From Candidatus Heimdallarchaeota archaeon (lineage in GTDB: Archaea > Asgardarchaeota > Heimdallarchaeia > Heimdallarchaeales > Heimdallarchaeaceae), in the NCBI GenBank assembly GCA_016839945.1, contig JAEOTE010000007.1:1-64000 (forward strand): a stretch of DNA of 64,000 nucleotides. Reading direction: 5' to 3'. Shown piece after piece: positions 1,805-27,507 of the stretch. Made by a program: the position numbers and the translations under genes. A model generated the notes under the pieces. It searched no databases, was not told the origin of the DNA, and was given only the letters and a program-made list of their open reading frames with translations. How positions within the stretch are numbered: the first letter of the stretch is position 1; the number at the start of each line of letters is the position of its first letter.

Positions 1805-2253
1805 CTTTCAATTTCCTTTGTATCTACCCCAGCTTGTTTTAAGTGATGTACATCATGTCCCCACAAAGAATAAAAGTTTAGTAGCCTTTCATCATCTTGA
1901 AAATAGTTTTCAATAATTCTTTCATAGATACCAATTAGCTTATCTCTTGTATCTTGGAATTTTTTTACAGCTTCTGATGAGGAGAGTTTTTTGTTCTTAT
2001 CCAAAAAACTTTGATTAACTTCATCTAAATCTAAATCTTCAGGGAAGTATTCAGTCCATATAAACGGTTTTCCAGCGATGATATGTTCTGAAACTTTGAT
2101 CATTTCCTCGTCCCATCCTTCCAGATGAAGAGCTAATTCTCTTTTACCCCAACCATTAGGAAGATTTGTATCTTCTGGAAGTTCCATGAAGGTTTTAGTT
2201 GTAAGCTTAAGCTTATCTGTCGAAACCATAGCTTGTTCTTTTAATTTTTCCAT
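1801..2253 (-). CDS. DinB/ClbS-DfsB-like four-helix-bundle protein
   Basis: WGKRELALHLEGWDE and C-terminal HDVHH His motifs; start moved to MEKLK (2253) because the upstream extension is an A/T terminator-like tract. Confidence 0.6.
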   Translation of the reverse strand: MEKLKEQAMVSTDKLKLTTKTFMELPEDTNLPNGWGKRELALHLEGWDEEMIKVSEHIIAGKPFIWTEYFPEDLDLDEVNQSFLDKNKKLSSSEAVKKFQDTRDKLIGIYERIIENYFQDDERLLNFYSLWGHDVHHLKQAGVDTKEIES

Positions 2254-2326
2254 AACAAAATTTGATACTGGACACTTAAGAATTTTTTTTAATTTTTTTA
2301 AAAAAATAAAAGTTTTTAAGCTAATA

Positions 2327-2845
2327 TTATCCATTCATTGCAAATATCTTTCCTATTTCTGCAGCCCAGTTTTCTACATCTTCTAAATTTCTGTTATCTG
2401 AACGGAAACTAGGCAGCTTCCCTGATGCTTTTAATAGCCAAATATGAGGTATTTTAGATTTGGGAACTCGTCCCCCAAAAGCTTTCATAGAAATTGGTTT
2501 AATGTGAGGATATTTACCTACTATATCCTTTAAAAATGCCTTGTATGCCTGTTTATACAGCTTTTTTTCTCCTGCGAATCCTGCGCAAACAAATATAGCT
2601 ATTTTCTTCCCTTGAAAATCTTTTTTTAGGAAAGTTTCTGCATTGTTTCCCCACTTACCATGAAAAATGCAACTACCAATGACAATATTCTCATATTTTG
2701 AGGTATTTGGATGTTCTTTCTTCTCTTCAAATCTATGTAAATCAACTTCAAGATTGTATTCATTTTCAAGAACTTCAGATATCAGAGAAGCAGCTTCTTT
2801 AGTAGAACCATATAATGTTTGATAAGAAACAAGTGTTTTCCCCAT
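2327..2845 (-). CDS. Flavodoxin-domain protein (Flavodoxin_5 / HemG-like)
   Basis: YQTLYGSTKE FMN loop, IVIGSCI, AFGG, DNRNLEDVENWA; start at MGKT. Confidence 0.85.
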   Translation of the reverse strand: MGKTLVSYQTLYGSTKEAASLISEVLENEYNLEVDLHRFEEKKEHPNTSKYENIVIGSCIFHGKWGNNAETFLKKDFQGKKIAIFVCAGFAGEKKLYKQAYKAFLKDIVGKYPHIKPISMKAFGGRVPKSKIPHIWLLKASGKLPSFRSDNRNLEDVENWAAEIGKIFAMNG

Positions 2846-3021
2846 TAATGTCACTTCTATGAACAACGAGTCTGAAAATGCTTTTAATATTTAGCATTTT
2901 ACAAATTTTCTAATGCCTGAAAGGACTAATGACTATTTTTGATACACCTAATATTTAATAAGTAGATTATTCATCGTTAATCATTAAGATTATTACAAAC
3001 AGATAAAATTGGTGACTTTAA

Positions 3022-3537
3022 ATGAATGAAACATTAATTGTATATGGAACAAGATATGGTGCAACAACTGAAGCTTGTGCTGAAATACAAAAAATACTTG
3101 AGAATGAATTCAAGTTTCATGTTGAAATTTGGGATCTTAAAGATTATCGTGCATGTCCCGATTTAAGTGATTTTGAGAACATCATTATAGGTAGTGGCAT
3201 AGAGTATGGGAAATGGGTTGAAAATACAGAAAAGTATCTTAAAGAGAATAAATTTGAAGATAAGAAATTAGCTGTATTCATTTCTTCAAGTTATGCTGGA
3301 GAAGAAGATCTCTATGATTATGCAAAGAAAAATTTCATAGATAAAATACTAGAAAAATATCCACATATCAAACCTGTTGCTCAAGCTGCTTTTGGAGGAA
3401 GAATTCCAAAGAAAGAATTACCTAAAATTGCAGATGAAAGGCTTTTAGGCAGATTACCTAAATTTCAGATAGATAATAGAGATTGGGATAAAATCCGAGA
3501 TTGGGCTCGAGAATTAGGTAAAATCTTTACTCAATAG
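3022..3537 (+). CDS. Flavodoxin-domain protein (Flavodoxin_5 / HemG-like), paralog of 2327-2845
   Basis: YGTRYGAT, IIIGSGI, AFGG, DNRDWDKIRDWA; GGTGA SD upstream. Confidence 0.88.
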   Translation: MNETLIVYGTRYGATTEACAEIQKILENEFKFHVEIWDLKDYRACPDLSDFENIIIGSGIEYGKWVENTEKYLKENKFEDKKLAVFISSSYAGEEDLYDYAKKNFIDKILEKYPHIKPVAQAAFGGRIPKKELPKIADERLLGRLPKFQIDNRDWDKIRDWARELGKIFTQ

Positions 3538-3564
3538 AAATTTTAAACAAAATTTCTTTTTTTA

Positions 3565-4104
3565 TCATTCTTCTTCCTTTTTTCGAAGAATTTCAGCTGA
3601 AACAAATTTTTCTCCATCAAAAGCAAGTCTTACACCTTCACAGGTATCAAGAGGTTTACCCCAAAAATTATAGTCTATGTTTGGAAGACATCCTATTACA
3701 CATATCTCTATTAATCCTCCATGACTCACAATAAGTATTGATCCTTTTTCTGGTAATTCCAAAACTAGAGATTTAATAAATTCAGTCATTTCTTTTGAGT
3801 ATTCAGCTGTTTTACCACCATTTTGAATCACTTCAGCATACTGAGGAAAACTTATTCCCCACTCTAATTCTTCTTCTAAACCTTCAGGAGTCTGACTAAT
3901 TTCATCATATGTTTCATCTATTGCAAAACCCATTGCAACAGCTGTTTCAATAGCTCTTGGTGCTGTACTGGCTATAACTCGATTGAAGCCACCCATTTCC
4001 TTGCCTGTCTCCTTTGCTAAATTCACTCCTTCTTGGTTTAAATGGGGTGAAGGTTTTACCCGAATTGAATGTCTTCTAAATTCAACAATTTTCATTACTT
4101 TCAC
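3565..4104 (-). CDS. Histidine phosphatase (phosphoglycerate mutase) family protein
   Basis: N-terminal RRHS, STAPRAIETA, LIVSHGG. Confidence 0.8.
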   Translation of the reverse strand: MKVMKIVEFRRHSIRVKPSPHLNQEGVNLAKETGKEMGGFNRVIASTAPRAIETAVAMGFAIDETYDEISQTPEGLEEELEWGISFPQYAEVIQNGGKTAEYSKEMTEFIKSLVLELPEKGSILIVSHGGLIEICVIGCLPNIDYNFWGKPLDTCEGVRLAFDGEKFVSAEILRKKEEE

Positions 4105-4263
4105 TTTTTAGTTAGAAAAAATGTAATAAAATCTTTTTGGATTGCTTTATATATCCTAACAATTTCGTTTAATCAACTCTTATTTTGGTGGATTTTTTCT
4201 CTTTTTGTCTTTTAGAATGAGAAGAAGTGATTAAAACATCATTTTTGCGTAACATCTTTATAT

Positions 4264-4962
4264 TTGAAAGATAATTTAACTATTGAGAAAGTAAAAATGT
4301 CGGCTAAAGAAGAAAAAGCAACTGACTTGACAGACACAATCTTGCACTGCTCTACTTTAGTATGTGACACATTAGTAAGAATGGCAGATATGGTTACATT
4401 ATCTCTACTTTATCATCCTGGGATGGAGGAAAGAACTGTAAAGATGAAACAATTATACGAGAATGTGATAAATTTCATTGATGATATCACTTCTTCTATA
4501 TATCAACCTCAAGATAGTTTAGAGCTTTCAATTAACCAGTATGATCCTATTTTCTTTCATCTAAAGAATGTTTCAAAACTTATGATTGATCTAATAGCTC
4601 TTCTATCTCAAGAACACATAGAGATGCAATTACAAACTATGGAATATTTTTATAACATGAATAAATTCATCTTGAATTGTATCAATATCCTTAACAGCTT
4701 AGTACATGCTAGTTTGCAGGATATCCAATTCTATGATAAAACTGAAATAACCAATGTAGAATTAGGCGCAAACGAACTTTATAGATTATTACTCCGTGAT
4801 TTACCTGCAAGTGCTAAAGAATGGAAAAGTGCTTTTACTTTATATTTAGTAGGAGAGAAAATGAGTGCGATTGTTTTTCATTGTTGTGAAGCTGGAAAGA
4901 AAATTTATGCAGCTCGTTTTGCAGCAATTGGATTAAAAGAACCAAATAAACCTGAAGAATAA
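4264..4962 (+). CDS. PhoU/DUF47-like helical-bundle protein (divergent)
   Basis: All-helical; C-terminal repeat ELGANELYRLLLRDL...EKMSAIVFHC resembles PhoU/DUF47; start may be ATG 4297. Confidence 0.45.
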   Translation: MKDNLTIEKVKMSAKEEKATDLTDTILHCSTLVCDTLVRMADMVTLSLLYHPGMEERTVKMKQLYENVINFIDDITSSIYQPQDSLELSINQYDPIFFHLKNVSKLMIDLIALLSQEHIEMQLQTMEYFYNMNKFILNCINILNSLVHASLQDIQFYDKTEITNVELGANELYRLLLRDLPASAKEWKSAFTLYLVGEKMSAIVFHCCEAGKKIYAARFAAIGLKEPNKPEE

Positions 4963-10077: not shown

Positions 10078-11517
10078 GTGTTTGATACTAAGATATTTCA
10101 GCGAATTCGAGAAAGATTGACTCAAAATAACTATGATTATCTTATACAGCTATCTATTTGTTTTTCACTTTTTATCTTATCCTTAATAATCAGAACTGTT
10201 ATACGTACTTGGTTCTTATCAAATTTTAATGTTATACCATATATTTCAACAGAAGGTTGGTACTGGGAAACCTATCGAGATGCAGATACATATTACCAAC
10301 ATTACATTTACTCATTCAAGTATGAATCATGGAATCCTTATAGACTAGATAGAGAATGGCCATTGTCTGGATATGTATATGGTCCGATTTTTGTATATTG
10401 TTTAGTTTTTCTTTCATATTTCACTGACATATTTTATCCTGGAATTCCAAGACTAGATAGAGCTTGGAAAGCAGTTGTTTTTGCTCCAACCCTCTTTGAT
10501 TCTCTTACTACTGTTCTTATTTATTTAATAGTTCTAAAATCATTAAAAGAGGGGAAAAGAAATAGGTTAAACGTTGTTTACTCACTTTTAGCAGCATTAT
10601 CGTATATATTCATGCCTTTGGTTTTGTTTTATAACAACATTATGTTCCTAAATACATACATGGTTACTTTTTTTTCTGTTCTATCTTTCTATTTTCTGCA
10701 TAAAGGAAAACACAAATTATCTGGTGGTATTCTAGCGTTAGCAATTCTAACAAAACTAATTGCATTTTTCCTTCTACCTATCTGGTTTTTGTATCTCTTA
10801 AGAAACGATATAAGAAAAGGTCTAGAATTTTTATTATCAACTGCTCTAACAATGATAATTTTTTCTTTACCTTGGTTAGTAATGGATCCTTATAATTACA
10901 TATATCAACAAGTTTGGCCAGGTCAAACATTAAACACTGTTTTTTCCATAGAATATAGATGGATTTATTGGGCAACTACTCCCACGCATGCGTTCTTGTA
11001 TTGGGGGTGGGAAAATGTAGCTACATTTTATTATCAACTTAATTCTCTATATATACCTCTGTTTTTCTTTATTCTTGTAAGTTGTATTATAGTGATACTT
11101 AAAGCCCCACATATGGATCTGAAACGAAACTCGTTTTTTTCTTTTAATGCAATGTTTACAATTGGTTTCCATATCTTTTTATCAAGAGGTAACTACAAAT
11201 ATTATGATACATTTTTCATACCTTTTGTTATAGTAGCAATAGCAGAATGGGTTCAGAATTTCAGAAGAAAGGAAATTGGTGCAACTCTGTTTATTATATT
11301 TATAGGATGGATGGTTTTTCTAAATATATGGATAATAATTAAAATAAAATGGTTGCATATCTTTTTTACATTCCTCATTTTTGTTACTATTATAATTACT
11401 TACAATTTAGAAATGCATCTTGCTCTATTCCAGAAGAACAACTATGCTAGTTTATGGTTGTACATAAAAGAACAAAGCAGAAAAATAAAGAAATTAAAAA
11501 TTAAAGAAAACAGCTAA
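10078..11517 (+). CDS. GT-C membrane glycosyltransferase (GT87/PIG-M-like mannosyltransferase)
   Basis: Luminal DAD, NPY...YVYGP motif, LAILTK, >10 TM segments; GTG start at 10078 inferred. Confidence 0.7.
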   Translation: MFDTKIFQRIRERLTQNNYDYLIQLSICFSLFILSLIIRTVIRTWFLSNFNVIPYISTEGWYWETYRDADTYYQHYIYSFKYESWNPYRLDREWPLSGYVYGPIFVYCLVFLSYFTDIFYPGIPRLDRAWKAVVFAPTLFDSLTTVLIYLIVLKSLKEGKRNRLNVVYSLLAALSYIFMPLVLFYNNIMFLNTYMVTFFSVLSFYFLHKGKHKLSGGILALAILTKLIAFFLLPIWFLYLLRNDIRKGLEFLLSTALTMIIFSLPWLVMDPYNYIYQQVWPGQTLNTVFSIEYRWIYWATTPTHAFLYWGWENVATFYYQLNSLYIPLFFFILVSCIIVILKAPHMDLKRNSFFSFNAMFTIGFHIFLSRGNYKYYDTFFIPFVIVAIAEWVQNFRRKEIGATLFIIFIGWMVFLNIWIIIKIKWLHIFFTFLIFVTIIITYNLEMHLALFQKNNYASLWLYIKEQSRKIKKLKIKENS

Positions 11518-12491
11518 AATTCTGTTTTCTTAAGGAGTCTTTCCCATCTTTCATCAACAGCTTCTTGTATTTCAACAAGTTTTTTCTTCCATTCTGGTTT
11601 GAATAGATGTCTGAATCTTCCTTGTACTTTCAGAAAATCTTCTACAGGTAATTTCTTTTCCGGATTTTTTGCCAAACGTAAAGAAACTCCAGATAAAATC
11701 CATTCATCTTTGTAAGTGGAATAAAGTGGGAAGAAGCATGTTTTAACTGCAAGTTTAGCTACTTCAATTGATTGATCTGGAGAATATCTTTGTCCTAAAT
11801 TACATGGAGAATCAACCAATAAAAATGCTGAACCATCATGTTTAAGTCCAGCCTGAACCTTAGCCATTAGATCCCTTGGATATGCAGGACTTGCAGTAAA
11901 TGTAGGTATATCATGAGCTGCTAAAATTGCTGCTAAAGGTTTTTGCCAACGAATCTTTCCTGGAATCACAGAACCAGGGGGGCTGGTTGTTGTAGCTGCA
12001 CCTTGAGGAGTACCTCCAGAACGTTGTATACCAGTATTCATGTAAGCTCCATTATCATAACATATATAGAGAAAATCATGTCCTCTTTCTACTGCTCCAG
12101 AGAGACTTTGAAGTCCTATATCAAAGGAAGATCCATCACCGCCAAAAACAATCATATGAACTTCTCGCTCTCTCATGAGACCTTTTCTCTGCATAGCTTT
12201 CATTGCTTCAATTGCTCCTGAAGCTGTTGCAGGTGCGTTCTCAAATGCATTGTGCAACCAAGGTGCATCCCAAGCAGTGTATGGATAGATTGTTGTTGCA
12301 ACTTCCAAACATCCAGTTGCATTTACTAGCATGAAAGGATCACCAAGTGCTTTTGCAGCAAGTGTCACTTGTCTTGCCATTATTCCCGCTCCGCATCCAG
12401 CACATAATCTATGTCCTGAAGTTAATACTTCACCTAGCTTTGACCATTCTTGAAGATCTTTTACAGATACTTTTGGTAATTGTATTGTCAT
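11514..12491 (-). CDS. porB: Pyruvate/2-ketoisovalerate:ferredoxin oxidoreductase beta subunit
   Basis: GHRLCAGCG, ATGCLEV, TPP motif GGDG...YDNGAYMNTG; start at ATG 12491 after GGTGA. Confidence 0.95.
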   Translation of the reverse strand: MTIQLPKVSVKDLQEWSKLGEVLTSGHRLCAGCGAGIMARQVTLAAKALGDPFMLVNATGCLEVATTIYPYTAWDAPWLHNAFENAPATASGAIEAMKAMQRKGLMREREVHMIVFGGDGSSFDIGLQSLSGAVERGHDFLYICYDNGAYMNTGIQRSGGTPQGAATTTSPPGSVIPGKIRWQKPLAAILAAHDIPTFTASPAYPRDLMAKVQAGLKHDGSAFLLVDSPCNLGQRYSPDQSIEVAKLAVKTCFFPLYSTYKDEWILSGVSLRLAKNPEKKLPVEDFLKVQGRFRHLFKPEWKKKLVEIQEAVDERWERLLKKTEF

Positions 12492-12501
12492 TTTCTTCAC
12501 C

Positions 12502-13683
12502 TTACGTCCTATATCCTATCCAATCAGTAGTCATCGTCATACCAACATCATGATAATCTTTTGTCTTTTCATAGATATCCTCAATTTCAGGTAGTGTTAA
12601 CACTCTTCCGCCCAAACCATTGATGTAACCATGTAGAGTAGGAACATTCTCTTTTCCATACAAAGCAGTTGCTATATCAGTTTGCATTATTGTACCTGGA
12701 GAACCGAATGTTGCTGATCTATCCAAAATGCTGGCAGCTTTAACCCCACTTAATGCTTCTTGCACATCTAATGAAGGGAAAGGTCTATACAATCTGATCT
12801 TTAATGCTCCAACTTTTTCACCTTTATTTCTTAGTCTATCAACAACAGCTTTTGCATTTCCAGCTGTAGCTCCATAAGAAACAAAAGCATAGTCAGCATC
12901 TTCAAGTTGGTACTCTTCAATAATCTCCATTTTTCGTCCTGACATCTCACTAAATTCAGCCATTACATCCTTAGTGACTGTGTATGCTCGCTGCATTGCT
13001 TCCTCCTGTTGTCTTTTAATTTCCATGTAGTAATCTTGAAGAACTAACGAACCAAATGTCATTTTTTCGTCTGGATTAAATCGATATTTTGTTGATCTGT
13101 ATTCAGGGAGAAAATCTTCTACTTGTTGTTTACTAAGTGTTTCAACTCTTTCAAGAGCGTGTGTTACAATAAAACCTTCAATACCAAACATAGCAGGTAA
13201 CATAACATCAGGATGTTCAGCTATTTTGAAAGATAAGATAGTTTCATCATAAGCTTCTTGAGCTGATTCACCAAATAGAGAAACCCATGAAGTGTCTCTA
13301 CATACTACTTGATCTGTGCACTCACCATGTATATTGATTGGAGCAGAAAATGCTCTGTTTGCTATAGCAAGAACTATTGGACATCTCATTCCTGAAGCAA
13401 CATATAGAATTTCATACATTAAAGCTAAACCTGCTGAAGCTGATGCTGTGAAAACTCTTGCTCCTGTTAGTGATGCTCCAACACAAGCTGACATAGCTGA
13501 ATGTTCTGATTCGACAGGGATAAAACTTGTGTCTACCTCACCATTGTTGACAAAATCACTATAACGTTCTACGATAATCGTTTGTGGCGTGATAGGATAG
13601 GCAGCCACAACATCTGGGTTCACTAGTTTTGCTGCCCAAGCAACAGCTTCATCTCCAGTCATTCCTTTTACTTCTCTACTCAT
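12502..13683 (-). CDS. porA: Pyruvate/2-ketoisovalerate:ferredoxin oxidoreductase alpha subunit
   Basis: AYPITPQT, ESEHSA, ANRA, RPFP, GLGGR. Confidence 0.95.
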   Translation of the reverse strand: MSREVKGMTGDEAVAWAAKLVNPDVVAAYPITPQTIIVERYSDFVNNGEVDTSFIPVESEHSAMSACVGASLTGARVFTASASAGLALMYEILYVASGMRCPIVLAIANRAFSAPINIHGECTDQVVCRDTSWVSLFGESAQEAYDETILSFKIAEHPDVMLPAMFGIEGFIVTHALERVETLSKQQVEDFLPEYRSTKYRFNPDEKMTFGSLVLQDYYMEIKRQQEEAMQRAYTVTKDVMAEFSEMSGRKMEIIEEYQLEDADYAFVSYGATAGNAKAVVDRLRNKGEKVGALKIRLYRPFPSLDVQEALSGVKAASILDRSATFGSPGTIMQTDIATALYGKENVPTLHGYINGLGGRVLTLPEIEDIYEKTKDYHDVGMTMTTDWIGYRT

Positions 13684-20429: not shown

Positions 20430-21323
20430 TTGATGTTAGAAAAAGAAAAAGTTCCCAAAGATGTTCTAGATCATATCTTTAAACTAATTATTGGTAGAAG
20501 AACAGAGCTTAAATTAATGATTAGAGCGGTTGAAAAGGGATTACCTATCATTATAGAAGGACCTGTGGGAACAGGAAAAACAGAAATGGCGAAAGTATTA
20601 GCTAGTAGTTTAGATAGACTGTTTGTTCGAGTGGATGGAGATGATAGTCTTACCTCAATTAAACTAAAAGGATGGTATGATCCTCCGCTTGTACTGGAAA
20701 GAGGATTTTCTCGAGAAACTTTCATTTCTGGACCTTTAACACAAGCCATGGAAGAAGGAGGTATATTTTTTTATAACGAAGTAAACAGAGCTCCTTCAGA
20801 AACAATAAATGCAGTATTAACAGCTTTGGATGAAAAACTAATTACAATTCCTCAACTTGGTGAAATTCAAGCAAAACCTGGATTCTTATCCATTTTCACA
20901 TATAATCCTCAAGATACTGTTGCTACCAATCCCTTACCTATGGCTTTTTATGATAGATGTATTTGGGTTTACGTTTCTCATCAGAATTTAGAAGAGATGA
21001 TAGATATAGTAAAACTTAGAACAGATAGTGATGATGAACTTCTGATTAAGATTTCTTGCGAAATTGTTCAAGCAACATTAAATCATCCTGAGCTTGAAAT
21101 GGGTTCAACGGTTAGAGGAGCCATCCAATTAGTTGAATTACACAAATCTGAAGAAACAATAGAGGAAGAATCTTTACTAGATAAAGTTATTGCAGTTCAT
21201 TCAAGAAAAATACGATGTAAAACTACTAGTAAGAAAACAGAATCAGAAATACTAGAAGAAATTGTATCCAAAATTCTTTCTAACTACGAAGAGGATAAAA
21301 TAATACGAAAAAAAGAGCAGTAG
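20430..21323 (+). CDS. MoxR-family AAA+ ATPase
   Basis: Walker A EGPVGTGKT, Walker B region FYNEVNR, NAVLTALDE, YDRC, TVRGAI. Confidence 0.9.
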   Translation: MMLEKEKVPKDVLDHIFKLIIGRRTELKLMIRAVEKGLPIIIEGPVGTGKTEMAKVLASSLDRLFVRVDGDDSLTSIKLKGWYDPPLVLERGFSRETFISGPLTQAMEEGGIFFYNEVNRAPSETINAVLTALDEKLITIPQLGEIQAKPGFLSIFTYNPQDTVATNPLPMAFYDRCIWVYVSHQNLEEMIDIVKLRTDSDDELLIKISCEIVQATLNHPELEMGSTVRGAIQLVELHKSEETIEEESLLDKVIAVHSRKIRCKTTSKKTESEILEEIVSKILSNYEEDKIIRKKEQ

Positions 21324-21366
21324 GTGACCTTGCAACCACAATTGTAAGGGATGAACCGTTCCCTTC
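21288..21366 (+). promoter_or_regulatory. Putative -1 programmed frameshift signal (SD-like GAGGA, A AAA AAA, downstream hairpins)
   Basis: A7 at 21308-21314 in X XXY YYZ phase; -1 frame open from 21299 into the vWA ORF. Confidence 0.6.
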
Positions 21367-21439
21367 TATCCCAGCTCAACAGACAAGTAGGTTACTTATT
21401 AATGAGATTCATTTAGAATTAGGTAAGAAGCAAGAAGAT

Positions 21440-22348
21440 ATGTCCAGGATTTTAGAACTTGCTGAACAAGCAGCTGATGAGGATAATCTTGAAGGACTTC
21501 GTTTAATAGCTACCAATTATCCAATTATTGTTGCTCAAATGCTAAACAAGATGGAGTTAACAGATATAATTCTGGATCAGCTTCAAGGAGAGGAACTAAC
21601 TCTTCTATATTCTAGAACTAAGAAGCATTTAGATTTTCAGATTAGAAAAAAAATGTTAGATAAGTTAATTCCATTTATTACGAAAAAAGCAAAGACAATT
21701 TACAGAAGAGGTGTATCAGCTTCAGTTAAGAGATATGTAAATTATGAACCAGGGGATTCTTGGGAAATAGAGATGACAATAGAAAAGATGCTTAGTAATG
21801 GGAAAACTATTCCTGATTATGATAGTATAGTTGTTAAAGAACCTTCTAAAAGAAAAAGAAGTTTAGTTATTTGTATTGATAAGAGTTTGAGTGTTCTGCA
21901 ATTAATCCATCAAATCGTATTAATGGCATCAGTTCTATCTCTTTCAGTAAAGAAAGATAATTTTGCGATTATCGATTTTGATTCTACTGCTCAGATTCTA
22001 AAAGAGATGAATACAACAATTCATCCTGAATCAATAGTTGAACTTATTCTGAATATTGAGAGTAGTGGGAAAACTAATCTTGAGGAGGCTCTTTCTCTTG
22101 CGCACAAGCAACTCTCAAAGTGTGTTTCAAAAGAGAAAATAGTTTATTTGATAAGTGATTTAGAAAGGACAGTTGGTAAAAATCCAATTCCCGTAATAAG
22201 TCGAATTCCAGATTTAAGAGTTATCTACGCTCGAACTTATCGAAGAGTTGCATTTGTAGATGAAGTAATTTCACTAAATAATGTCTCAATGAGTGAGTTA
22301 AATCAGAATAGCGATCTTATTGATTTGACTTCAAGACTGATCAGTTAG
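21440..22348 (+). CDS. vWA-domain protein (MoxR partner, CoxE-like); frame open upstream to 21299
   Basis: MIDAS ICIDKSLS, GKTNL, LISD. Confidence 0.85.
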   Translation: MSRILELAEQAADEDNLEGLRLIATNYPIIVAQMLNKMELTDIILDQLQGEELTLLYSRTKKHLDFQIRKKMLDKLIPFITKKAKTIYRRGVSASVKRYVNYEPGDSWEIEMTIEKMLSNGKTIPDYDSIVVKEPSKRKRSLVICIDKSLSVLQLIHQIVLMASVLSLSVKKDNFAIIDFDSTAQILKEMNTTIHPESIVELILNIESSGKTNLEEALSLAHKQLSKCVSKEKIVYLISDLERTVGKNPIPVISRIPDLRVIYARTYRRVAFVDEVISLNNVSMSELNQNSDLIDLTSRLIS

Positions 22349-23702
22349 TTTTCTTTTGAATTTCCTTTATAATTTTATTATCACTTTTTGTAAAAAGAAG
22401 TTGATCCAAAAGTATTATCACAACACCTAAGCCTACTAGAATATATCCTTCAATTTGAGCTTGTTTTCTTTCAATCAAGTATTTTATTTCAATGGTAGCT
22501 TCATAGAAAAACGATTGAGTTGTATTCCATTCATCCACCAAGGTTATTAGATATAAATTGATTTCAGTTTGGGTTTCATTTATTTGAACTGTATATCCAT
22601 CAGAATTTTGATTCCCTATTAACCTCTTTGAATACAAACTTGATTGTTTCATTTTAGCAACTTGATTATCATATTCCGTAATTAATTGTGAAAATGTTAT
22701 GTTTCCATCATAGAAATTTAGAGTCAGATTATCAAATGAAGTAAAGAAATTGGAAAAGGTTACATTATTAGTAAGAACAATCGATGAATTATATGGAACA
22801 GTACCCGTTTCGCACTGGAAGAAAACCTCTGTTTGAGTATGTGGCTTATTTACGAAAGAGATTCCTAACGTTGGATCAAAATAAGTTAAAGTATTGATGT
22901 AATCTGAAGAAACCGAGTAAGTTATCAATCTCGTTCTTCCTATTGATGGGCCAAGTAAAATTCCTAGTACAATTATGAAATAAGCAAAAATACTGAAACT
23001 TCTCTTAGCTCTCCTCCATATATGTGAGATTGTTGTTTTTACTTTCTTCTCTTCTTTTTCCTCTCTTTTTTTCTTTCTTCTAAATGCAGGAGCTAGGATA
23101 ACAATTATCCAAACAAGAACAATCAAAATATGCACAGTTATTTGTTCAAGATAAAGATCAATGAATTCTCCATAGAGTGCTTCTCTTTCTTGTTGAGAAA
23201 GATTTGTTATAAATATACCATGACCTTCAGTTGGGGAATAAATCGTCCAGTCAGGTATTATTCCAACTAATGATAAGGGGAAGAATAACCAAGGTTGGTT
23301 ACTGAATCTTAGATAGACTGTCAAATCATATAAGTTTGGATCTAAAGGCCAGAAAAGAAGAACTGCACCCCAACTTAGGTCAAGAATAATATGTAGGATC
23401 CACATAATTGAAACTAATTTAAAGAAACGAGTAGTCTTTTGTCCTGTTGTTTCAATTGGTCCTTCATCTTTATTGAACCTTCCAATAATCATGAAACATA
23501 GTAGAGTGAACGTTGGAATTATTATGCTGTGAGTGTAAGAACGATGATAACCAAAGAAAATGTCTAAATCTGGGAGAGTTGCAAAGAGGTTAATTAGAAT
23601 AAATTCCCACCTATGTTTCTTATAATATGCTTTATCATTTTTTGAAAGTAATAACCACACAGTTAATCCTTGTAATGCTAGATGAGTAGTTGTGTAGGTC
23701 AT
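22341..23702 (-). CDS. Membrane-bound metal-dependent hydrolase (YdjM-like) with C-terminal ectodomain
   Basis: TH, LPDLD, HRSYTHS, HIILD motifs; additional soluble domain between TM segments. Confidence 0.75.
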   Translation of the reverse strand: MTYTTTHLALQGLTVWLLLSKNDKAYYKKHRWEFILINLFATLPDLDIFFGYHRSYTHSIIIPTFTLLCFMIIGRFNKDEGPIETTGQKTTRFFKLVSIMWILHIILDLSWGAVLLFWPLDPNLYDLTVYLRFSNQPWLFFPLSLVGIIPDWTIYSPTEGHGIFITNLSQQEREALYGEFIDLYLEQITVHILIVLVWIIVILAPAFRRKKKREEKEEKKVKTTISHIWRRAKRSFSIFAYFIIVLGILLGPSIGRTRLITYSVSSDYINTLTYFDPTLGISFVNKPHTQTEVFFQCETGTVPYNSSIVLTNNVTFSNFFTSFDNLTLNFYDGNITFSQLITEYDNQVAKMKQSSLYSKRLIGNQNSDGYTVQINETQTEINLYLITLVDEWNTTQSFFYEATIEIKYLIERKQAQIEGYILVGLGVVIILLDQLLFTKSDNKIIKEIQKKTN

Positions 23703-23862: not shown

Positions 23863-26800
23863 ATGGCCATTGAAGATGTACCTCTCCATCCAAAGGATAG
23901 TTTTAAAGATTTCATCCTTGATTATCAAGATATAGATGGAAAACATATCTACTCTGATCAAATCAGTAAAATGACTATTGAAGGTTTAACTTCTTTTTTT
24001 ATTAACTATGAGGATGTTGTGGGTCACGATCCTAAATTAGCGGAAGACTTATTGAAAAATCCGGAAGATTTCTTAGAAGCTGCAAATTTTGCACTTGAAG
24101 AAGTACTGCTTGCCATAGAAGCAGATTTTGTTGAAGCTAAGAAAAAAGATGGAGAAGAATTTCGGATTCGTTTTTCAAATACTCCAGAGCAAGTAGATTT
24201 ACGACACTTAAGGTCCATTCATATGGGAAAATTTGTTTCAATAGAGGGAATTATCATTCGTCAAAGTGTTGTAAAACCTCTTCTTGTTAAAGGTGTTTTC
24301 CAGTGTGATAGCTGCAAAACAGAGATTTTTCCAATTACACAAGAAGGAGGAGTATACAAAGAACCTAGAAAATGCACTAATCCAAATTGTGGAAAAAAAG
24401 GTCCTTTTAAACTTGTACCTGAGAATTCTTCTTTTACAGATTTTCAAACTGTAACCCTACAGGAACGTCCTGAAACACTTCCTCCAGGACAAATTCCACG
24501 TTCAGTTCCAGCAAGATTAATTGGTGATACAGTTGATACAGTAAGAGCTGGTGACAGGGCAGTTGCGGCTGGAATTTTACGAATGAGAGCACCACCAAAA
24601 GGACGAAAAGCAGGAACTGCAATTTTCGATCCATGGTTGGATGTTAATTTTATATCTTCCCGAGAAAAAGAATTTGAAGAAATTGAAATAGATCCTGAGA
24701 CTGAACAACAGATACTTAATTTATCTCAAGATTTGAACATTCATAGGAGAATAATTCGTTCCATTGCTCCTTCAATTTATGGGATGGAAATAATTAAAGA
24801 AGCTTTAGCGACTGTGCTTTTTGGAGGAGTATCAAGACTTGCTCCTGATGGTATGAAACAAAGAGGAGATTCTAATCTTCTTCTAGTTGGAGATCCTGGC
24901 GTTGCTAAATCACAGTTGCTTCAATATGTTCATAGATTAGCTCCAAGGGGTTTGTTAACTTCAGGAAAAGCAAGTTCTGCAGCAGGTTTAACAGCTGCTG
25001 TAATAAGAGATCCCGATACTGGTGAGTTCGGTCTTGAAGCAGGAGCTCTTGTACTTGCTGATAGAGGAATCTGTGCAATTGATGAATTTGACAAAATGAA
25101 TCCAGTGGATAGATCATCAATACATGAAGCGATGGAACAACAATCTTATCACCCAAGTTTAGAGATTTCATTCTTAGATGGACACAAACATCAAATTGGT
25201 AATTTCGTTGATGGTCTATTCGATGAGTATAAAGAACACATAATCAATGGAAAAGATTGTGAGATATTACCTTTAAACGGTTTAGATTACCAAGTTCTTA
25301 CAACTAATTTTCAAAAAATCTACACCACTACAGTTAATAGAGTGAGTCGTCATTTAGCACCAGATCATTTTGTTAAGATCACTTATTCAAATGGCAGAGA
25401 AATCCTAGTTACACCAGAACATCCAGTATTTATTATGAAAAATGGAAAAATAGAGACTATAGAAGCAGAAAAAGTAACTGTAGATACTTTTGTTCCAGGA
25501 GTTCGATATTTAGACAACAAAAATAGCACATCATTAATTACTGATTTTGATGCTGGAAGGAAGAACATTACACTACCAGATACAATTACAGAGGATTTGG
25601 CGAAATTCTTAGGATATTACATAACAGAGGGATACTCCTACAAAGGATCTTCTTTAGAAGTTGGATTAAGCAATACTGACCCAGAGATAATAGAAGATAT
25701 GATTGATAGTATAAGAAATACATTCAATACTGAACCAATTGATTACGTCGAACAAAACAGAACCATTCGTATTATATCATCTGATGTTTATAACTATTTG
25801 AAAGAAAATTTTCCTAAGATGATGGTTAAAAGCTATGAAAAGAGAATTGACAAGAAAGTGTTCTGTATAGAGGAAAACAAAAGGACTGAATTCCTCCGAG
25901 CAGCTTTCAAGGGTGATGGATCAATAGAAAGTACCTCAATTTCATATTCTACTTCCTCAAAAGGTTTAGCTCATGATTATCAAGATCTATTGCTTACTTT
26001 AGGAGTAAACTCAAGATTATTCAGTGAAGAATATTCTTTTGGCAAGGAAAAAGAACAGAGGAGAGTAAGATATAAGGTCTACATAACAGGAGATAGTATA
26101 ACCAAATTCTCTTCTATGATTTTCGAAAAACCTGAGGTGATTCCTAAACTTATGAAATTGATAACAAAGAGTAAAAGATCAAATAGAAAACATGATGTTT
26201 TACCTCCAGATGTTGCACATCTTATAATTGATTCTCTTCATAGCTTAGGATTGAGTTACGATGGTTATTTCTATCAACATCTAAAGAACAAGTATGGAAT
26301 AACAACTGATGTTATTAACAAATACTATAACAAAATTACTAGCAGATATTACAGTCTTCAAGATAAAATCAGTAAAATAAAATCCCCAAAAGAACTCAGA
26401 GAACTTTCAAGGTACTCAGCTAGTAAAATGGCTAGATTAGTTGGAATTTCTAGATATACACTGTCAAAGTACGAAAAGAATGAGAAGAAAGAACTGCTAT
26501 CTTTATACCAAAACACATTAGAAAGACAATTAGATCAAGTAAGAAAAAACTTAGTTGAAATTGATCATCTGAGAGAATTTAGATGGTTGAGAATCAAAAA
26601 AACAGAATTAGTTGAAAATAAAGGAGAATTAAAAACAAAGTGGGTTTATGATGTTACAATAGAACCTACTGAGAATTTTATCAGTCATGGTATTGTTCTC
26701 CACAACACTGTAAGTATAGCAAAAGCTGGTATTGTAGCTCAATTGAATGCTAGAACAGCTGTTATAGCAGCAGCTAATCCTCGTTTCGGTAGATATGAGG

Positions 26801-27507
26801 TTACAAGACCTCCAATAGAGAACATAAACTTACCTGCAACTATTCTATCAAGATTTGATCTTATCTTTGTAATAAGAGATGAACCTGATGTTGAAATTGA
26901 TCGAAAAATGGCTCGTCATATTCTTGAACTTAGAAGAGGTCATATTATTGAGGAAGCTGAACCTACAATAGAAATGGAACTATTAAGAAAGTATATTAGT
27001 TACTCAAAACAGCATATTCAACCCTCTTTAACTGATGAAGCAATGGAAAAAATTGAAGAATATTATTTGGATTTGCGAAAAGTACATGATGAATCAGCAG
27101 CTATAGCTATTACTCCAAGATACTTAGAAGCTATTGTGCGTTTGTCTGAATCTCAAGCTAGGATGGCACTAAAGGAAGAAGTAACTATTGATCATGTTGA
27201 AGCAGCTATAGAATTACTTGATGCTTCATTAAAACAAGTTAGTACTGATCCACTTACAGGAAGAGTAGATATTGATTACTTGTTATCAGGAACACCTAAA
27301 AGTGTGCGTTCAAAATTCGATAAGGTTCTTGACATAATCAGAGATGAAATAAATAAATCTAGTTCTGGTAAAGTAGCTATCGATAAAGTGAAGGAGATTG
27401 CTAGAGATTTAGATATAGACGCGGAATTTGTGGATAGGGCTATTACTTCTCTTCGAAGTGATGGAATCATCTTTGAACCCACAAAAGGTTTTATCAAAAT
27501 GCCGTAA
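23863..27507 (+). CDS. mcm: Replicative MCM helicase, intein-containing (693-aa mature protein)
   Basis: Zn motif CDSC/CTNPNC, GDPGVAKSQ, IDEFDKM, HEAMEQQ|TVSIAKAG, SRFD, C-terminal wHTH. Confidence 0.97.
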   Translation: MAIEDVPLHPKDSFKDFILDYQDIDGKHIYSDQISKMTIEGLTSFFINYEDVVGHDPKLAEDLLKNPEDFLEAANFALEEVLLAIEADFVEAKKKDGEEFRIRFSNTPEQVDLRHLRSIHMGKFVSIEGIIIRQSVVKPLLVKGVFQCDSCKTEIFPITQEGGVYKEPRKCTNPNCGKKGPFKLVPENSSFTDFQTVTLQERPETLPPGQIPRSVPARLIGDTVDTVRAGDRAVAAGILRMRAPPKGRKAGTAIFDPWLDVNFISSREKEFEEIEIDPETEQQILNLSQDLNIHRRIIRSIAPSIYGMEIIKEALATVLFGGVSRLAPDGMKQRGDSNLLLVGDPGVAKSQLLQYVHRLAPRGLLTSGKASSAAGLTAAVIRDPDTGEFGLEAGALVLADRGICAIDEFDKMNPVDRSSIHEAMEQQSYHPSLEISFLDGHKHQIGNFVDGLFDEYKEHIINGKDCEILPLNGLDYQVLTTNFQKIYTTTVNRVSRHLAPDHFVKITYSNGREILVTPEHPVFIMKNGKIETIEAEKVTVDTFVPGVRYLDNKNSTSLITDFDAGRKNITLPDTITEDLAKFLGYYITEGYSYKGSSLEVGLSNTDPEIIEDMIDSIRNTFNTEPIDYVEQNRTIRIISSDVYNYLKENFPKMMVKSYEKRIDKKVFCIEENKRTEFLRAAFKGDGSIESTSISYSTSSKGLAHDYQDLLLTLGVNSRLFSEEYSFGKEKEQRRVRYKVYITGDSITKFSSMIFEKPEVIPKLMKLITKSKRSNRKHDVLPPDVAHLIIDSLHSLGLSYDGYFYQHLKNKYGITTDVINKYYNKITSRYYSLQDKISKIKSPKELRELSRYSASKMARLVGISRYTLSKYEKNEKKELLSLYQNTLERQLDQVRKNLVEIDHLREFRWLRIKKTELVENKGELKTKWVYDVTIEPTENFISHGIVLHNTVSIAKAGIVAQLNARTAVIAAANPRFGRYEVTRPPIENINLPATILSRFDLIFVIRDEPDVEIDRKMARHILELRRGHIIEEAEPTIEMELLRKYISYSKQHIQPSLTDEAMEKIEEYYLDLRKVHDESAAIAITPRYLEAIVRLSESQARMALKEEVTIDHVEAAIELLDASLKQVSTDPLTGRVDIDYLLSGTPKSVRSKFDKVLDIIRDEINKSSSGKVAIDKVKEIARDLDIDAEFVDRAITSLRSDGIIFEPTKGFIKMP
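25144..26706 (+). mobile_element. Intein (521 aa) with LAGLIDADG homing endonuclease in MCM
   Basis: Starts SYHP after EQQ; block B VTPEHP; LGYYITEG and LRAAFKGDG; WVYDVT; ends LHN before Thr+1. Confidence 0.93.

What the first reader, a model, noticed from the sequence alone, without database searches (positions are those of the whole stretch)
20430..22348. MoxR AAA+ and vWA genes appear joined by a programmed -1 frameshift, giving free AAA plus a ~639-aa AAA-vWA fusion
Seen: the AAA ORF ends ...CGA AAA AAA GAG CAG TAG, placing A AAA AAA (21308-21314) in X XXY YYZ phase two codons before the stop. The vWA ORF is in the -1 frame, which opens right after TAA at 21296-21298 and runs 47 codons with no ATG/GTG/TTG to the annotated ATG at 21440. 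SD-like GAGGA (21291-21295) sits 12 nt upstream of the slippery site. Downstream are hairpins CCTTGCAA-ccacaa-TTGTAAGG (21328-21349) and AAGGGA...TCCCTT. Known: the E. coli dnaX -1 signal uses SD + slippery A-run + hairpin, and chelatase chlD genes (AAA-linker-vWA) make two subunits by frameshifting. Inference: this MoxR/CoxE-type chaperone makes AAA-only and AAA-vWA chains at a fixed ratio, e.g. one tethered vWA adaptor per hexamer. I know of no description of this for Asgard MoxR systems.
Basis: partly seen in the sequence, partly recalled or inferred. Interest (0 to 1): 0.85.

Follow-up and report, generated by a model that had tools for sequence, protein, structure and literature searches.

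The report
Conserved -1 frameshift joining ATPase to vWA
In this Heimdall-group Asgard archaeon, an AAA+ ATPase gene and the start-less vWA gene behind it are best read as one recoded gene. Some ribosomes most likely slip back one base at a strictly conserved A_AAA_AAA site in front of a hairpin, so the cell makes both the ATPase alone and a 639-residue ATPase-vWA fusion.

Summary
The AAA ORF (20430-21323) ends CGA AAA AAA GAG CAG TAG. The A7 run (21308-21314) is in X_XXY_YYZ phase. The vWA frame is -1 and has no ATG/GTG/TTG before 21440.

Comparative evidence supports recoding:
- All 27 orthologous loci (4 genera of this Heimdallarchaeia family) keep the in-phase A7, a 0-frame stop 1-3 codons later and the -1 relation.
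- The linker evolves as protein, while the annotated Met is not conserved.
- A downstream hairpin (21323-21357) shows compensatory changes.
- 19 loci of a second family in the same class have the same layout, mostly A_AAA_AAC/A/T, usually with a GC hairpin 6-8 nt on that is built from rare codons.
- A sister family instead has a free AAA gene plus an in-frame AAA-vWA fusion.

The proteins are NorQ/NorD-like (Pfam AAA_5 plus a MIDAS-type vWA domain), not chelatase: CobN/ChlH is absent.

Ribosomal slippage is favoured over transcriptional slippage, but no RNA or protein data exist.

The closest precedent is the frameshifted chlD gene. This scan has noted the same recoding before in other genomes.

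The parts
20430..21323 (+). 0-frame ORF: 297-aa AAA+ ATPase of the MoxR class (AAA_5, NorQ/CbbQ/GvpN-like). Walker A GPVGTGKT is at 20559-20582. The ORF begins TTG 20430, immediately followed by ATG 20433.
   Evidence: Pfam AAA_5 scores 74.3 bits against a cut-off of 22, and AAA_3 scores 45.6. The closest solved single module is NorQ at 54 bits.
21308..21314 (+). Slippery heptamer A_AAA_AAA in X_XXY_YYZ phase (CGA AAA AAA G).
   Evidence: It is invariant and in phase in 27 of 27 loci across 4 genera. [quoted passage not shown]
21321..21323 (+). 0-frame stop TAG, two codons after the heptamer. It ends the free ATPase.
   Evidence: A 0-frame stop lies 1-3 codons after the heptamer in all 27 loci.
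21323..21357 (+). Conserved 3' stem-loop. The outer helix is GGU (21323-25) paired with ACC (21355-57). The inner helix is 21328-21333 paired with 21344-21349, and extends to 8 bp in this window (21328-35 / 21342-49). The spacer from the heptamer is 8 nt to the outer helix.
   Evidence: RNAalifold consensus. 94.7% of cells are paired against 25-60% when the partners are slid. All 6 inner pairs show compensatory changes, and 0 of 500 shuffles reach the observed score.
21314..22348 (+). -1 frame read after the slip. It encodes a disordered linker (RAVGDLATTIVRDEPFP...), a helical domain and a vWA domain. The MIDAS motif DxSxS is at 21878-21892. The stop is at 22346-22348.
   Evidence: Pfam VWA_2 scores 41.5 bits. 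Linker residues K4, K5, E19, P20, I37, E40 and L41 are invariant. Codon-position divergence is 0.32/0.20/0.44. The structural model gives top fold matches to NorD.
21296..21298 (+). TAA that opens the -1 frame 10 nt before the heptamer.
21440..21442 (+). First ATG of the -1 frame, the start a gene caller would pick. It is probably an internal Met, not a start.
   Evidence: This column is V, I, R or S in relatives. A confidently predicted helix (residues 26-41 of the frame) lies upstream of it. In the second family the first possible start lies up to 194 codons into the frame.

Best explanation
One recoded gene makes two proteins.

Ribosomes reading the AAA ORF mostly terminate at TAG 21321 and release a 297-aa NorQ/CbbQ-like AAA+ ATPase. 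A fraction slip back one base on A_AAA_AAA (21308-21314). The slip is helped by the stem-loop that starts 8 nt downstream, and perhaps by the nearby 0-frame stop. These ribosomes continue in the -1 frame to 22348 and make a 639-aa chain: ATPase, flexible linker, helical domain and MIDAS-type vWA domain.

By analogy with NorQ-NorD, CbbQ-CbbO and ChlI-ChlD, the two chains probably co-assemble into an AAA ring. That ring would carry one or a few covalently tethered vWA adaptors that grip an unknown client.

Shown here:
- the layout, its conservation and the coding status of the linker;
- covariation in the hairpin;
- the existence of in-frame fused relatives.

Inferred:
- that the slip is ribosomal, and how efficient it is;
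- co-assembly of the two chains;
- the client.
For: 1. Conserved layout. 27 of 27 orthologous loci in 4 genera (vWA identity down to 39%) keep N_NNA AAA AAA G in phase, a 0-frame stop 1-3 codons later and the -1 relation.

2. The linker is coding.
- The alignment reaches residue 1-4 of the -1 frame in all loci.
- Linker residues are invariant, while the annotated Met is not conserved.
- Divergence by codon position is 0.32/0.20/0.44, against 0.27/0.14/0.505 in the gene body.
- A predicted helix lies before the annotated Met.

3. The hairpin has compensatory changes.

4. A second family shows the same layout. In 19 loci of another family in the class, all have the -1 relation.
- Heptamers are A_AAA_AAC in 6, A_AAA_AAA in 8, A_AAA_AAT in 1, and longer A runs in 4. 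The last base is never G.
- In 15 of 19 the 0-frame stop follows 0-1 codon after the A-run; in the other 4 it is 9-15 nt on.
- In 17 loci a GC hairpin GCGGGAC-N-TCCCGC lies 6-8 nt downstream.
- The hairpin arms use rare codons: CGG in 17 of 17 (7% usage) and CCC in 17 of 17 (15% usage).
- The first possible start can lie 194 codons into the frame.

5. Both products seem to be needed. The sister family (G025) encodes a free AAA gene (52% identical to this ATPase, Walker A intact). It also has an in-frame 638-aa AAA-vWA fusion whose AAA module has degenerate motifs. Further in-frame fusions of 613-644 aa exist.

6. An A6 run followed by C or T is a poor substrate for polymerase slippage but a classic ribosomal heptamer. 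The X_XXY_YYZ rule with Z not G, and a 5-9 nt spacer, are as described in PMC8211752.
Against: - No RNA, ribosome-profiling or protein data exist, so neither product ratio nor mechanism has been observed.
- The window's own stem-loop is weak. The single-sequence fold has z = -1.33. The covarying inner helix starts 13 nt after the heptamer, and only the invariant 3-bp outer helix gives an 8-nt spacer.
- A7 can also support transcriptional slippage.
- Four relatives carry A9-A13 runs, and two of them (A10, A11) have no hairpin.
- The loci are related by descent, so counts of loci overstate independent support.
- No conserved client gene was found.
Confidence: 0.72

Rival explanations
1. The recoding is real but happens during transcription. 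RNA polymerase stutters on the A run and adds one A to some transcripts (A8). Those transcripts encode the fusion in frame.
For: - A runs are the classic substrate for polymerase slippage.
- Four relatives have A9-A13, and two of them (A10, A11) lack the hairpin.
- In the chlD precedent, slip efficiency in E. coli rose with A-run length: A7 10%, A9 40%, A11 63% (PMC3711429). Both mechanisms would predict that trend.
Against: - Seven relatives have only A6 followed by C or T, all in X_XXY_YYZ phase.
- A 3' hairpin at the ribosomal spacing is conserved, by covariation and by rare-codon use. Polymerase slippage has no need for it.
- The run length is held at exactly 7 in 27 of 27 loci rather than drifting longer.
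Confidence: 0.17
2. These are two ordinary genes. The vWA protein starts on its own, at ATG 21440 or at an unrecognised non-canonical start, and the A7 run is incidental.
For: - Gene callers predict it this way. Public records hold N-terminally short vWA proteins named as hypothetical.
- AT-rich genomes hold many A7 runs.
Against: - The ATG is not conserved.
- The 44 codons upstream of it evolve as protein and include a predicted helix.
- No conserved canonical or near-cognate start lies between the frame opening and the conserved residues.
- In the second family, the first ATG/GTG/TTG can be 194 codons into a roughly 346-codon frame.
- The frame always opens within 13-91 nt of the ATPase stop and is always -1, in 46 of 46 loci.
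Confidence: 0.05
3. The layout is an artefact or decay. Either an assembly homopolymer error (true A8, giving a plain fusion gene) or a recently broken pseudogene.
For: Homopolymers are error-prone in some sequencing chemistries. In-frame fusions exist in relatives.
Against: - The same A7 and frame layout appears in 27 assemblies, many of which carry isolate names from different projects.
- An independent contig from another sample matches without an indel.
- Both ORFs are under purifying selection across genera.
Confidence: 0.02

Closest known systems
Frameshifted chlD ('magnesium/cobalt chelatase' medium subunit) genes (Antonov et al. 2013, PMC3711429; review PMC5009743; Kuznetsov et al. 2022, PMC9227772)
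   Same: - One locus gives an AAA+ protein alone and an AAA+-linker-vWA fusion by a -1 shift at A_AAA_AAR or poly-A.
- The locus is annotated as two adjacent genes of about 1 kb each.
- In-frame fused relatives exist.
- Archaeal examples have been proposed (Methanocaldococcus).
   Different: - The AAA family differs: AAA_5, NorQ/GvpN-like. Pfam Mg_chelatase is not hit, and TIGR02031 scores 23 bits against a cut-off of 499.55.
- CobN/ChlH is absent from every genome carrying the recoded gene.
- The lineage differs (Heimdallarchaeia).
- The shift site is followed by a conserved hairpin and an immediate stop.
NorQ-NorD and CbbQ-CbbO (MoxR-class AAA_5 ATPase with a vWA adaptor)
   Same: - The ATPase's closest solved single module is NorQ at 54 bits, then CbbQ at 39 bits.
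- The modelled vWA domain's best fold matches are NorD vWA domains in NorQD complexes.
- The MIDAS residues D-x-S-x-S, T and D are invariant.
   Different: - In those systems the ATPase and adaptor are separate polypeptides from separate genes.
- Here the adaptor has no start of its own and would be covalently tethered to an ATPase copy.
- No nitric-oxide reductase or Rubisco client lies nearby.
E. coli dnaX (tau/gamma) -1 frameshift
   Same: An A-rich heptamer plus a 3' stem-loop yields two products with a shared N-terminus at a set ratio.
   Different: - In dnaX the shift gives the shorter product; here it gives the longer one.
- The dnaX upstream SD stimulator has no conserved counterpart here.
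- The last base of the heptamer is never G here.
Saccharolobus solfataricus fucA1. According to the 2021 review PMC8211752, this is the only reported case of programmed -1 frameshifting in Archaea.
   Same: An archaeal cellular gene split into 0 and -1 frames at an A-rich heptamer, with a putative stem-loop.
   Different: - fucA1 is split in only a few strains, and only the full-length product is known to matter.
- Here the split is conserved across genera and families.
- Both products appear to be used, since a sister family encodes them as two genes.

Membership tests
Programmed -1 ribosomal frameshift cassette | Heptamer X_XXY_YYZ in phase with the upstream ORF | tested here: met
   A_AAA_AAA at 21308-21314. 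In phase in 27 of 27 loci of this family, and an in-phase A_AAA_AAN is present in 19 of 19 loci of the second family.
Programmed -1 ribosomal frameshift cassette | Downstream ORF in the -1 frame, open from the shift site, coding, and without its own conserved start | tested here: met
Programmed -1 ribosomal frameshift cassette | 3' RNA structure 5-9 nt after the heptamer | tested here: met
   The spacer is 8 nt to the outer helix, and the inner helix shows covariation. In the second family the spacer is 6-8 nt to a GC hairpin built from rare codons. Caveat: the window's own fold is not unusually stable.
Programmed -1 ribosomal frameshift cassette | Both products actually made, with the shift occurring on the ribosome | not testable with these tools
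   No RNA run holds the stretch. No proteomics data are available.
ChlD / CobT-like chelatase medium subunit (fs-chlD) | ChlI-type AAA module (Pfam Mg_chelatase; NCBIfam BchD-ChlD) | tested here: not met
   Pfam Mg_chelatase is not hit at E<=0.01. TIGR02031 scores 23 bits against a cut-off of 499.55.
ChlD / CobT-like chelatase medium subunit (fs-chlD) | A large CobN/ChlH subunit in the genome | tested here: not met
   PF02514 is absent from the window's own genome (88% complete). It is found in only 1 of 83 genomes of the class, and that one lacks the recoded gene. Positive controls gave hits.
ChlD / CobT-like chelatase medium subunit (fs-chlD) | AAA-linker-vWA architecture with an A_AAA_AAR shift site between AAA and linker | tested here: met
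   literature PMC5009743 and PMC3711429.
MoxR-class AAA_5 ATPase with vWA adaptor (NorQD/CbbQO type) | AAA_5 domain above the Pfam threshold, with Walker A and the catalytic Glu of Walker B (the Walker B Asp position is Asn) | tested here: met
   AAA_5 scores 74.3 bits against 22. GPVGTGKT and FF(Y/F)NE(V/T)NRAPSE are conserved.
MoxR-class AAA_5 ATPase with vWA adaptor (NorQD/CbbQO type) | Partner with a vWA fold and an intact MIDAS motif | tested here: met
   VWA_2 scores 41.5 bits. D194, S196, S198, T259 and D287 are invariant. Top fold matches are NorD.
MoxR-class AAA_5 ATPase with vWA adaptor (NorQD/CbbQO type) | An identifiable client encoded nearby | tested here: inconclusive
   Neighbours differ between the two families. 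One has a YdjM-like membrane protein and MCM. The other has an M48 peptidase, a P-type ATPase and HypF.
Midasin/Rea1 | Six tandem AAA_5 modules in one chain, with a C-terminal MIDAS domain and specific sequence affinity | tested here: not met
   There is one AAA module only. The 139-bit match to midasin is a sum over modules, and the best single module scores 39 bits, below NorQ at 54. MIDAS domains of MDN1/Rea1 rank below NorD in the fold search.
Transcriptional slippage site | Long homopolymer (usually 8-9 or more), with RNA carrying extra bases | tested here: inconclusive
   The run is A7 here and A6 in 7 relatives. RNA could not be examined.

The most novel reading that the evidence does not exclude
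The frameshift is a stoichiometry device. It builds an AAA_5 ring with a covalently tethered MIDAS adaptor, a single-module, self-assembling counterpart of eukaryotic midasin/Rea1 (an AAA_5 ring plus a tethered MIDAS domain). It is preserved in the archaeal class closest to eukaryotes, and could resemble the ancestral state from which midasin arose by tandem fusion.
Probability: 0.06. Interest if true: 0.9.

Novelty: new variant of a known kind. Interest (0 to 1): 0.72.

Why it matters
A 2021 review (PMC8211752) counts a single reported case of programmed -1 frameshifting in Archaea. The site described here is a deeply conserved cellular candidate in Asgard archaea, with a textbook signal: an in-phase heptamer, a 6-8 nt spacer and a hairpin. 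That makes archaeal frameshifting directly testable.

It also extends the 'one gene, ATPase plus ATPase-vWA' logic of chlD to the NorQ/CbbQ-like MoxR chaperones. This suggests that tethering one adaptor to the motor ring at a translationally set ratio is a general design.

Practically, these loci are mis-annotated in public records as a short ATPase plus an N-terminally truncated hypothetical protein.

Tried and rejected
- **Word-index search for longer relatives.** The search for fused relatives of the vWA frame with lengths 'longer' found none. This is weak evidence, and the exhaustive search did find fusions.
- **RNA evidence.** No RNA holder is listed for the stretch. Run X1 laid no contig and X2 does not reach the site; only X3 bridges it, at low depth.
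- **Chelatase reading.** Rejected: no Mg_chelatase or BchD-ChlD membership and no CobN/ChlH. The 1214-aa neighbour is MCM with an intein, not CobN.
- **Special affinity to midasin.** Rejected as a sum-over-modules effect.
- **Upstream SD-like GAGGA as a stimulator.** Not conserved.
Not in the consensus structure.
- **Single-sequence fold of 21300-21380.** Not significantly stable, z = -1.33.
- **The genome's other AAA-vWA pair as an 'ordinary two-gene' control.** It turned out to have its own -1 layout.
- **Direction of evolution (frameshift first or fusion first).** Only a quick tree finished. It leaves the frameshifted and fused forms in an unresolved polytomy.
- **Complex prediction.** Not used. 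A pass would mostly reflect likeness to the solved NorQD complexes.
Full report
**Observation**

- The ORF 20430-21323 (TTG, then ATG at 20433) encodes a 297-aa ATPase and ends CGA AAA AAA GAG CAG TAG.
- The seven A's are 21308-21314. The first A is the third base of CGA, so the run reads A_AAA_AAA in X_XXY_YYZ phase.
- The vWA frame is the -1 frame. It opens after TAA 21296-98 and has no ATG, GTG or TTG until ATG 21440, 47 codons on.
- A slip would give 295 + 344 = 639 residues.
- The window is 32% GC and holds 18 runs of A7 or longer on this strand. The run alone therefore means little.

**The proteins**

The upstream product is a MoxR-class AAA+ ATPase.
- Pfam AAA_5 scores 74 bits and AAA_3 46 bits. 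The best NCBIfam match is GvpN, below its cut-off.
- Its closest solved single module is NorQ at 54 bits, then CbbQ.
- The larger 139-bit score to midasin is a sum over that protein's six modules; the best single module scores 39 bits.

The -1 frame encodes a vWA domain (VWA_2, 41.5 bits).
- The MIDAS residues D194-x-S196-x-S198, T259 and D287 are invariant.
- An AlphaFold model built from 16 relatives (pLDDT 77) has a disordered first 25 residues, then a helical domain starting at residue 26, then the vWA fold.
- The helical domain starts well before the annotated Met48.
- Its best fold matches are NorD vWA domains in NorQD complexes.

**Orthologues in the same family**

Whole-genome searches found the pair in 26 of 30 other genomes of the family (27 loci counting this window). 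Record titles call the relatives Candidatus Heimdallarchaeota MAGs, and their isolate names point to many different projects.
- In all 27 loci read (4 genera; vWA identity 93% down to 39%), the ATPase frame and the vWA frame differ by -1.
- The motif NNA AAA AAA G is invariant and in phase.
- A 0-frame stop follows within 1-3 codons.
- The -1 frame opens 9-18 nt before the run.
- Elsewhere in the same genes only 35% of Lys-Lys pairs are AAA AAA.

The protein alignment runs through the whole 'gap'.
- K4, K5, E19, P20, I37, E40 and L41 are invariant.
- The annotated Met column is V, I, R or S in relatives.
- Divergence by codon position in the linker is 0.32/0.20/0.44, against 0.27/0.14/0.505 in the gene body. 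The linker therefore evolves as protein in the -1 frame.
- The first possible start in that frame lies 74-80 codons in for two genera.

**RNA structure**

RNAalifold on 25 loci predicts a stem-loop. The outer helix is GGU/ACC (window 21323-25 / 21355-57) and the inner helix is 21328-33 / 21344-49.
- With this structure, 94.7% of cells pair, against 25-60% when partners are slid.
- All six inner pairs have compensatory changes, and no shuffle in 500 reaches the score.
- The spacer from the heptamer is 8 nt to the outer helix.
- The outer helix is invariant, so it is untested by covariation.
- The window's own fold is not unusually stable.

**A second family**

In the same class, 20 of 22 genomes of another family have an orthologue at about 30% identity. 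Nineteen loci were read.
- All 19 have the -1 relation.
- Heptamers are A_AAA_AAC in 6, A_AAA_AAA in 8, A_AAA_AAT in 1, and longer runs (A9-A13) in 4.
- In 15 of the 19 the 0-frame stop follows immediately or one codon later; in the other 4 it lies 9-15 nt after the run.
- In 17 loci a hairpin GCGGGAC-loop-TCCCGC lies 6-8 nt downstream.
- Its arms are written with rare codons. CGG is used in 17 of 17 against 7% usage, CCC in 17 of 17 against 15%, and GAC in 14 of 17 against 26%. This points to selection on the RNA.
- In some of these genomes the first ATG/GTG/TTG is 100-194 codons into a frame of about 346 codons. Independent initiation is therefore not credible there.
- The two genomes with A10 and A11 lack the hairpin. 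They may rely on the run alone.

**Fused relatives**

The only genome of a sister family (G025) has two genes in place of the recoded gene.
- One is a free AAA gene, 52% identical to this ATPase, with an intact GDVGTGKT.
- The other, directly behind it, is a 638-aa in-frame AAA-vWA fusion. Its AAA part is 36% identical and has a degenerate Walker A (GRSGSGKRF) and a lost Arg.
- Its junction reads PPKKRF, which matches IIRKK-R here.

This is what one expects if both chains are needed, and it parallels ChlI and ChlD.

Further in-frame AAA_5-vWA fusions of 613-644 aa exist, one of them in a Hodarchaeales MAG.

A quick tree places the two frameshifted groups and two fusions in one supported clade, without resolving their order.

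**Assembly error**

A contig from another sample's run spans 21110-21401 without any difference. All 27 assemblies show A7.

**Mechanism**

Several features fit ribosomal -1 frameshifting better than polymerase stuttering:
- the conserved phase;
- heptamers with only six A's followed by C or T;
- the absence of G as the last base;
- the conserved 3' hairpin at 6-8 nt;
- the adjacent stop.

Stuttering cannot be excluded for A7 and is plausible for the A9-A13 variants. No RNA run holds the stretch.

**Comparison with known systems**

The nearest precedent is the frameshifted chlD gene, where A_AAA_AAR or poly-A joins an AAA+ module to a linker-vWA part. Reporters in E. coli gave 10% for A7, and archaeal cases are proposed (PMC3711429, PMC5009743, PMC9227772).

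The present gene is not a chelatase.
- It misses the Mg_chelatase and BchD-ChlD models.
- CobN/ChlH is absent from all genomes that carry it.

I found no paper that describes such recoding for MoxR/NorQ-like systems or for Asgard archaea. The 2021 review counts one reported archaeal -1 frameshift (PMC8211752).

Earlier notes of this scan describe the same recoding in other genomes, including the A_AAA_AAC-plus-hairpin form. I reproduced that form independently.

**Verdict**

The two products' co-assembly, their ratio and the client are inferred only.

Noticed in passing
G000 contig C36, about 11200-13100 (locus L110, minus strand); not in the window: The genome's second, paralogous AAA-vWA pair also has the vWA frame at -1. 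Its ATPase ends GAT TTT TTC TAG, which is U_UUU_UUC directly before the stop. The -1 relation holds in 19 of 19 loci read across the order and beyond, mostly with GAT TTT TTC/TTT + stop. One genome may therefore carry two frameshifted AAA-vWA genes with different slip motifs.
   Followed up: partly
window 23863-27507 (+): MCM helicase gene interrupted by an intein with a LAGLIDADG endonuclease domain, 1214 aa in total. Relatives have MCM ORFs of 1317-1636 aa at the same position.
   Followed up: no
window 22341-23702 (-): A 453-aa YdjM-like membrane protein lies convergent with the vWA frame and overlaps its end by 8 nt. This neighbour is kept in three genera of the family. In the second family, the convergent neighbour is instead a 497-aa M48 membrane peptidase. 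Both are membrane metallo-hydrolase-like, which is a possible hint at the client.
   Followed up: partly
loci L098 (G061) and L102 (G060): Two relatives replaced the heptamer-plus-hairpin cassette with runs of A11 and A10 and no hairpin, with the 0-frame stop 15 nt later. This may be a switch of slippage mechanism within one orthologous group.
   Followed up: no
locus L021 (G025:C74) 1895-4653 (-): The sister family encodes a free AAA gene followed by an in-frame AAA-vWA fusion whose ATPase motifs are degenerate. The layout parallels ChlI/ChlD and suggests duplication and subfunctionalisation in place of recoding.
   Followed up: yes
loci L085-L103, just upstream of the slip site: In the second family a T6-T8 run (encoding Phe-Phe) sits 10-25 nt before the A run. 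It could pair with the A run or be a coincidence of the conserved FF residues.
   Followed up: no
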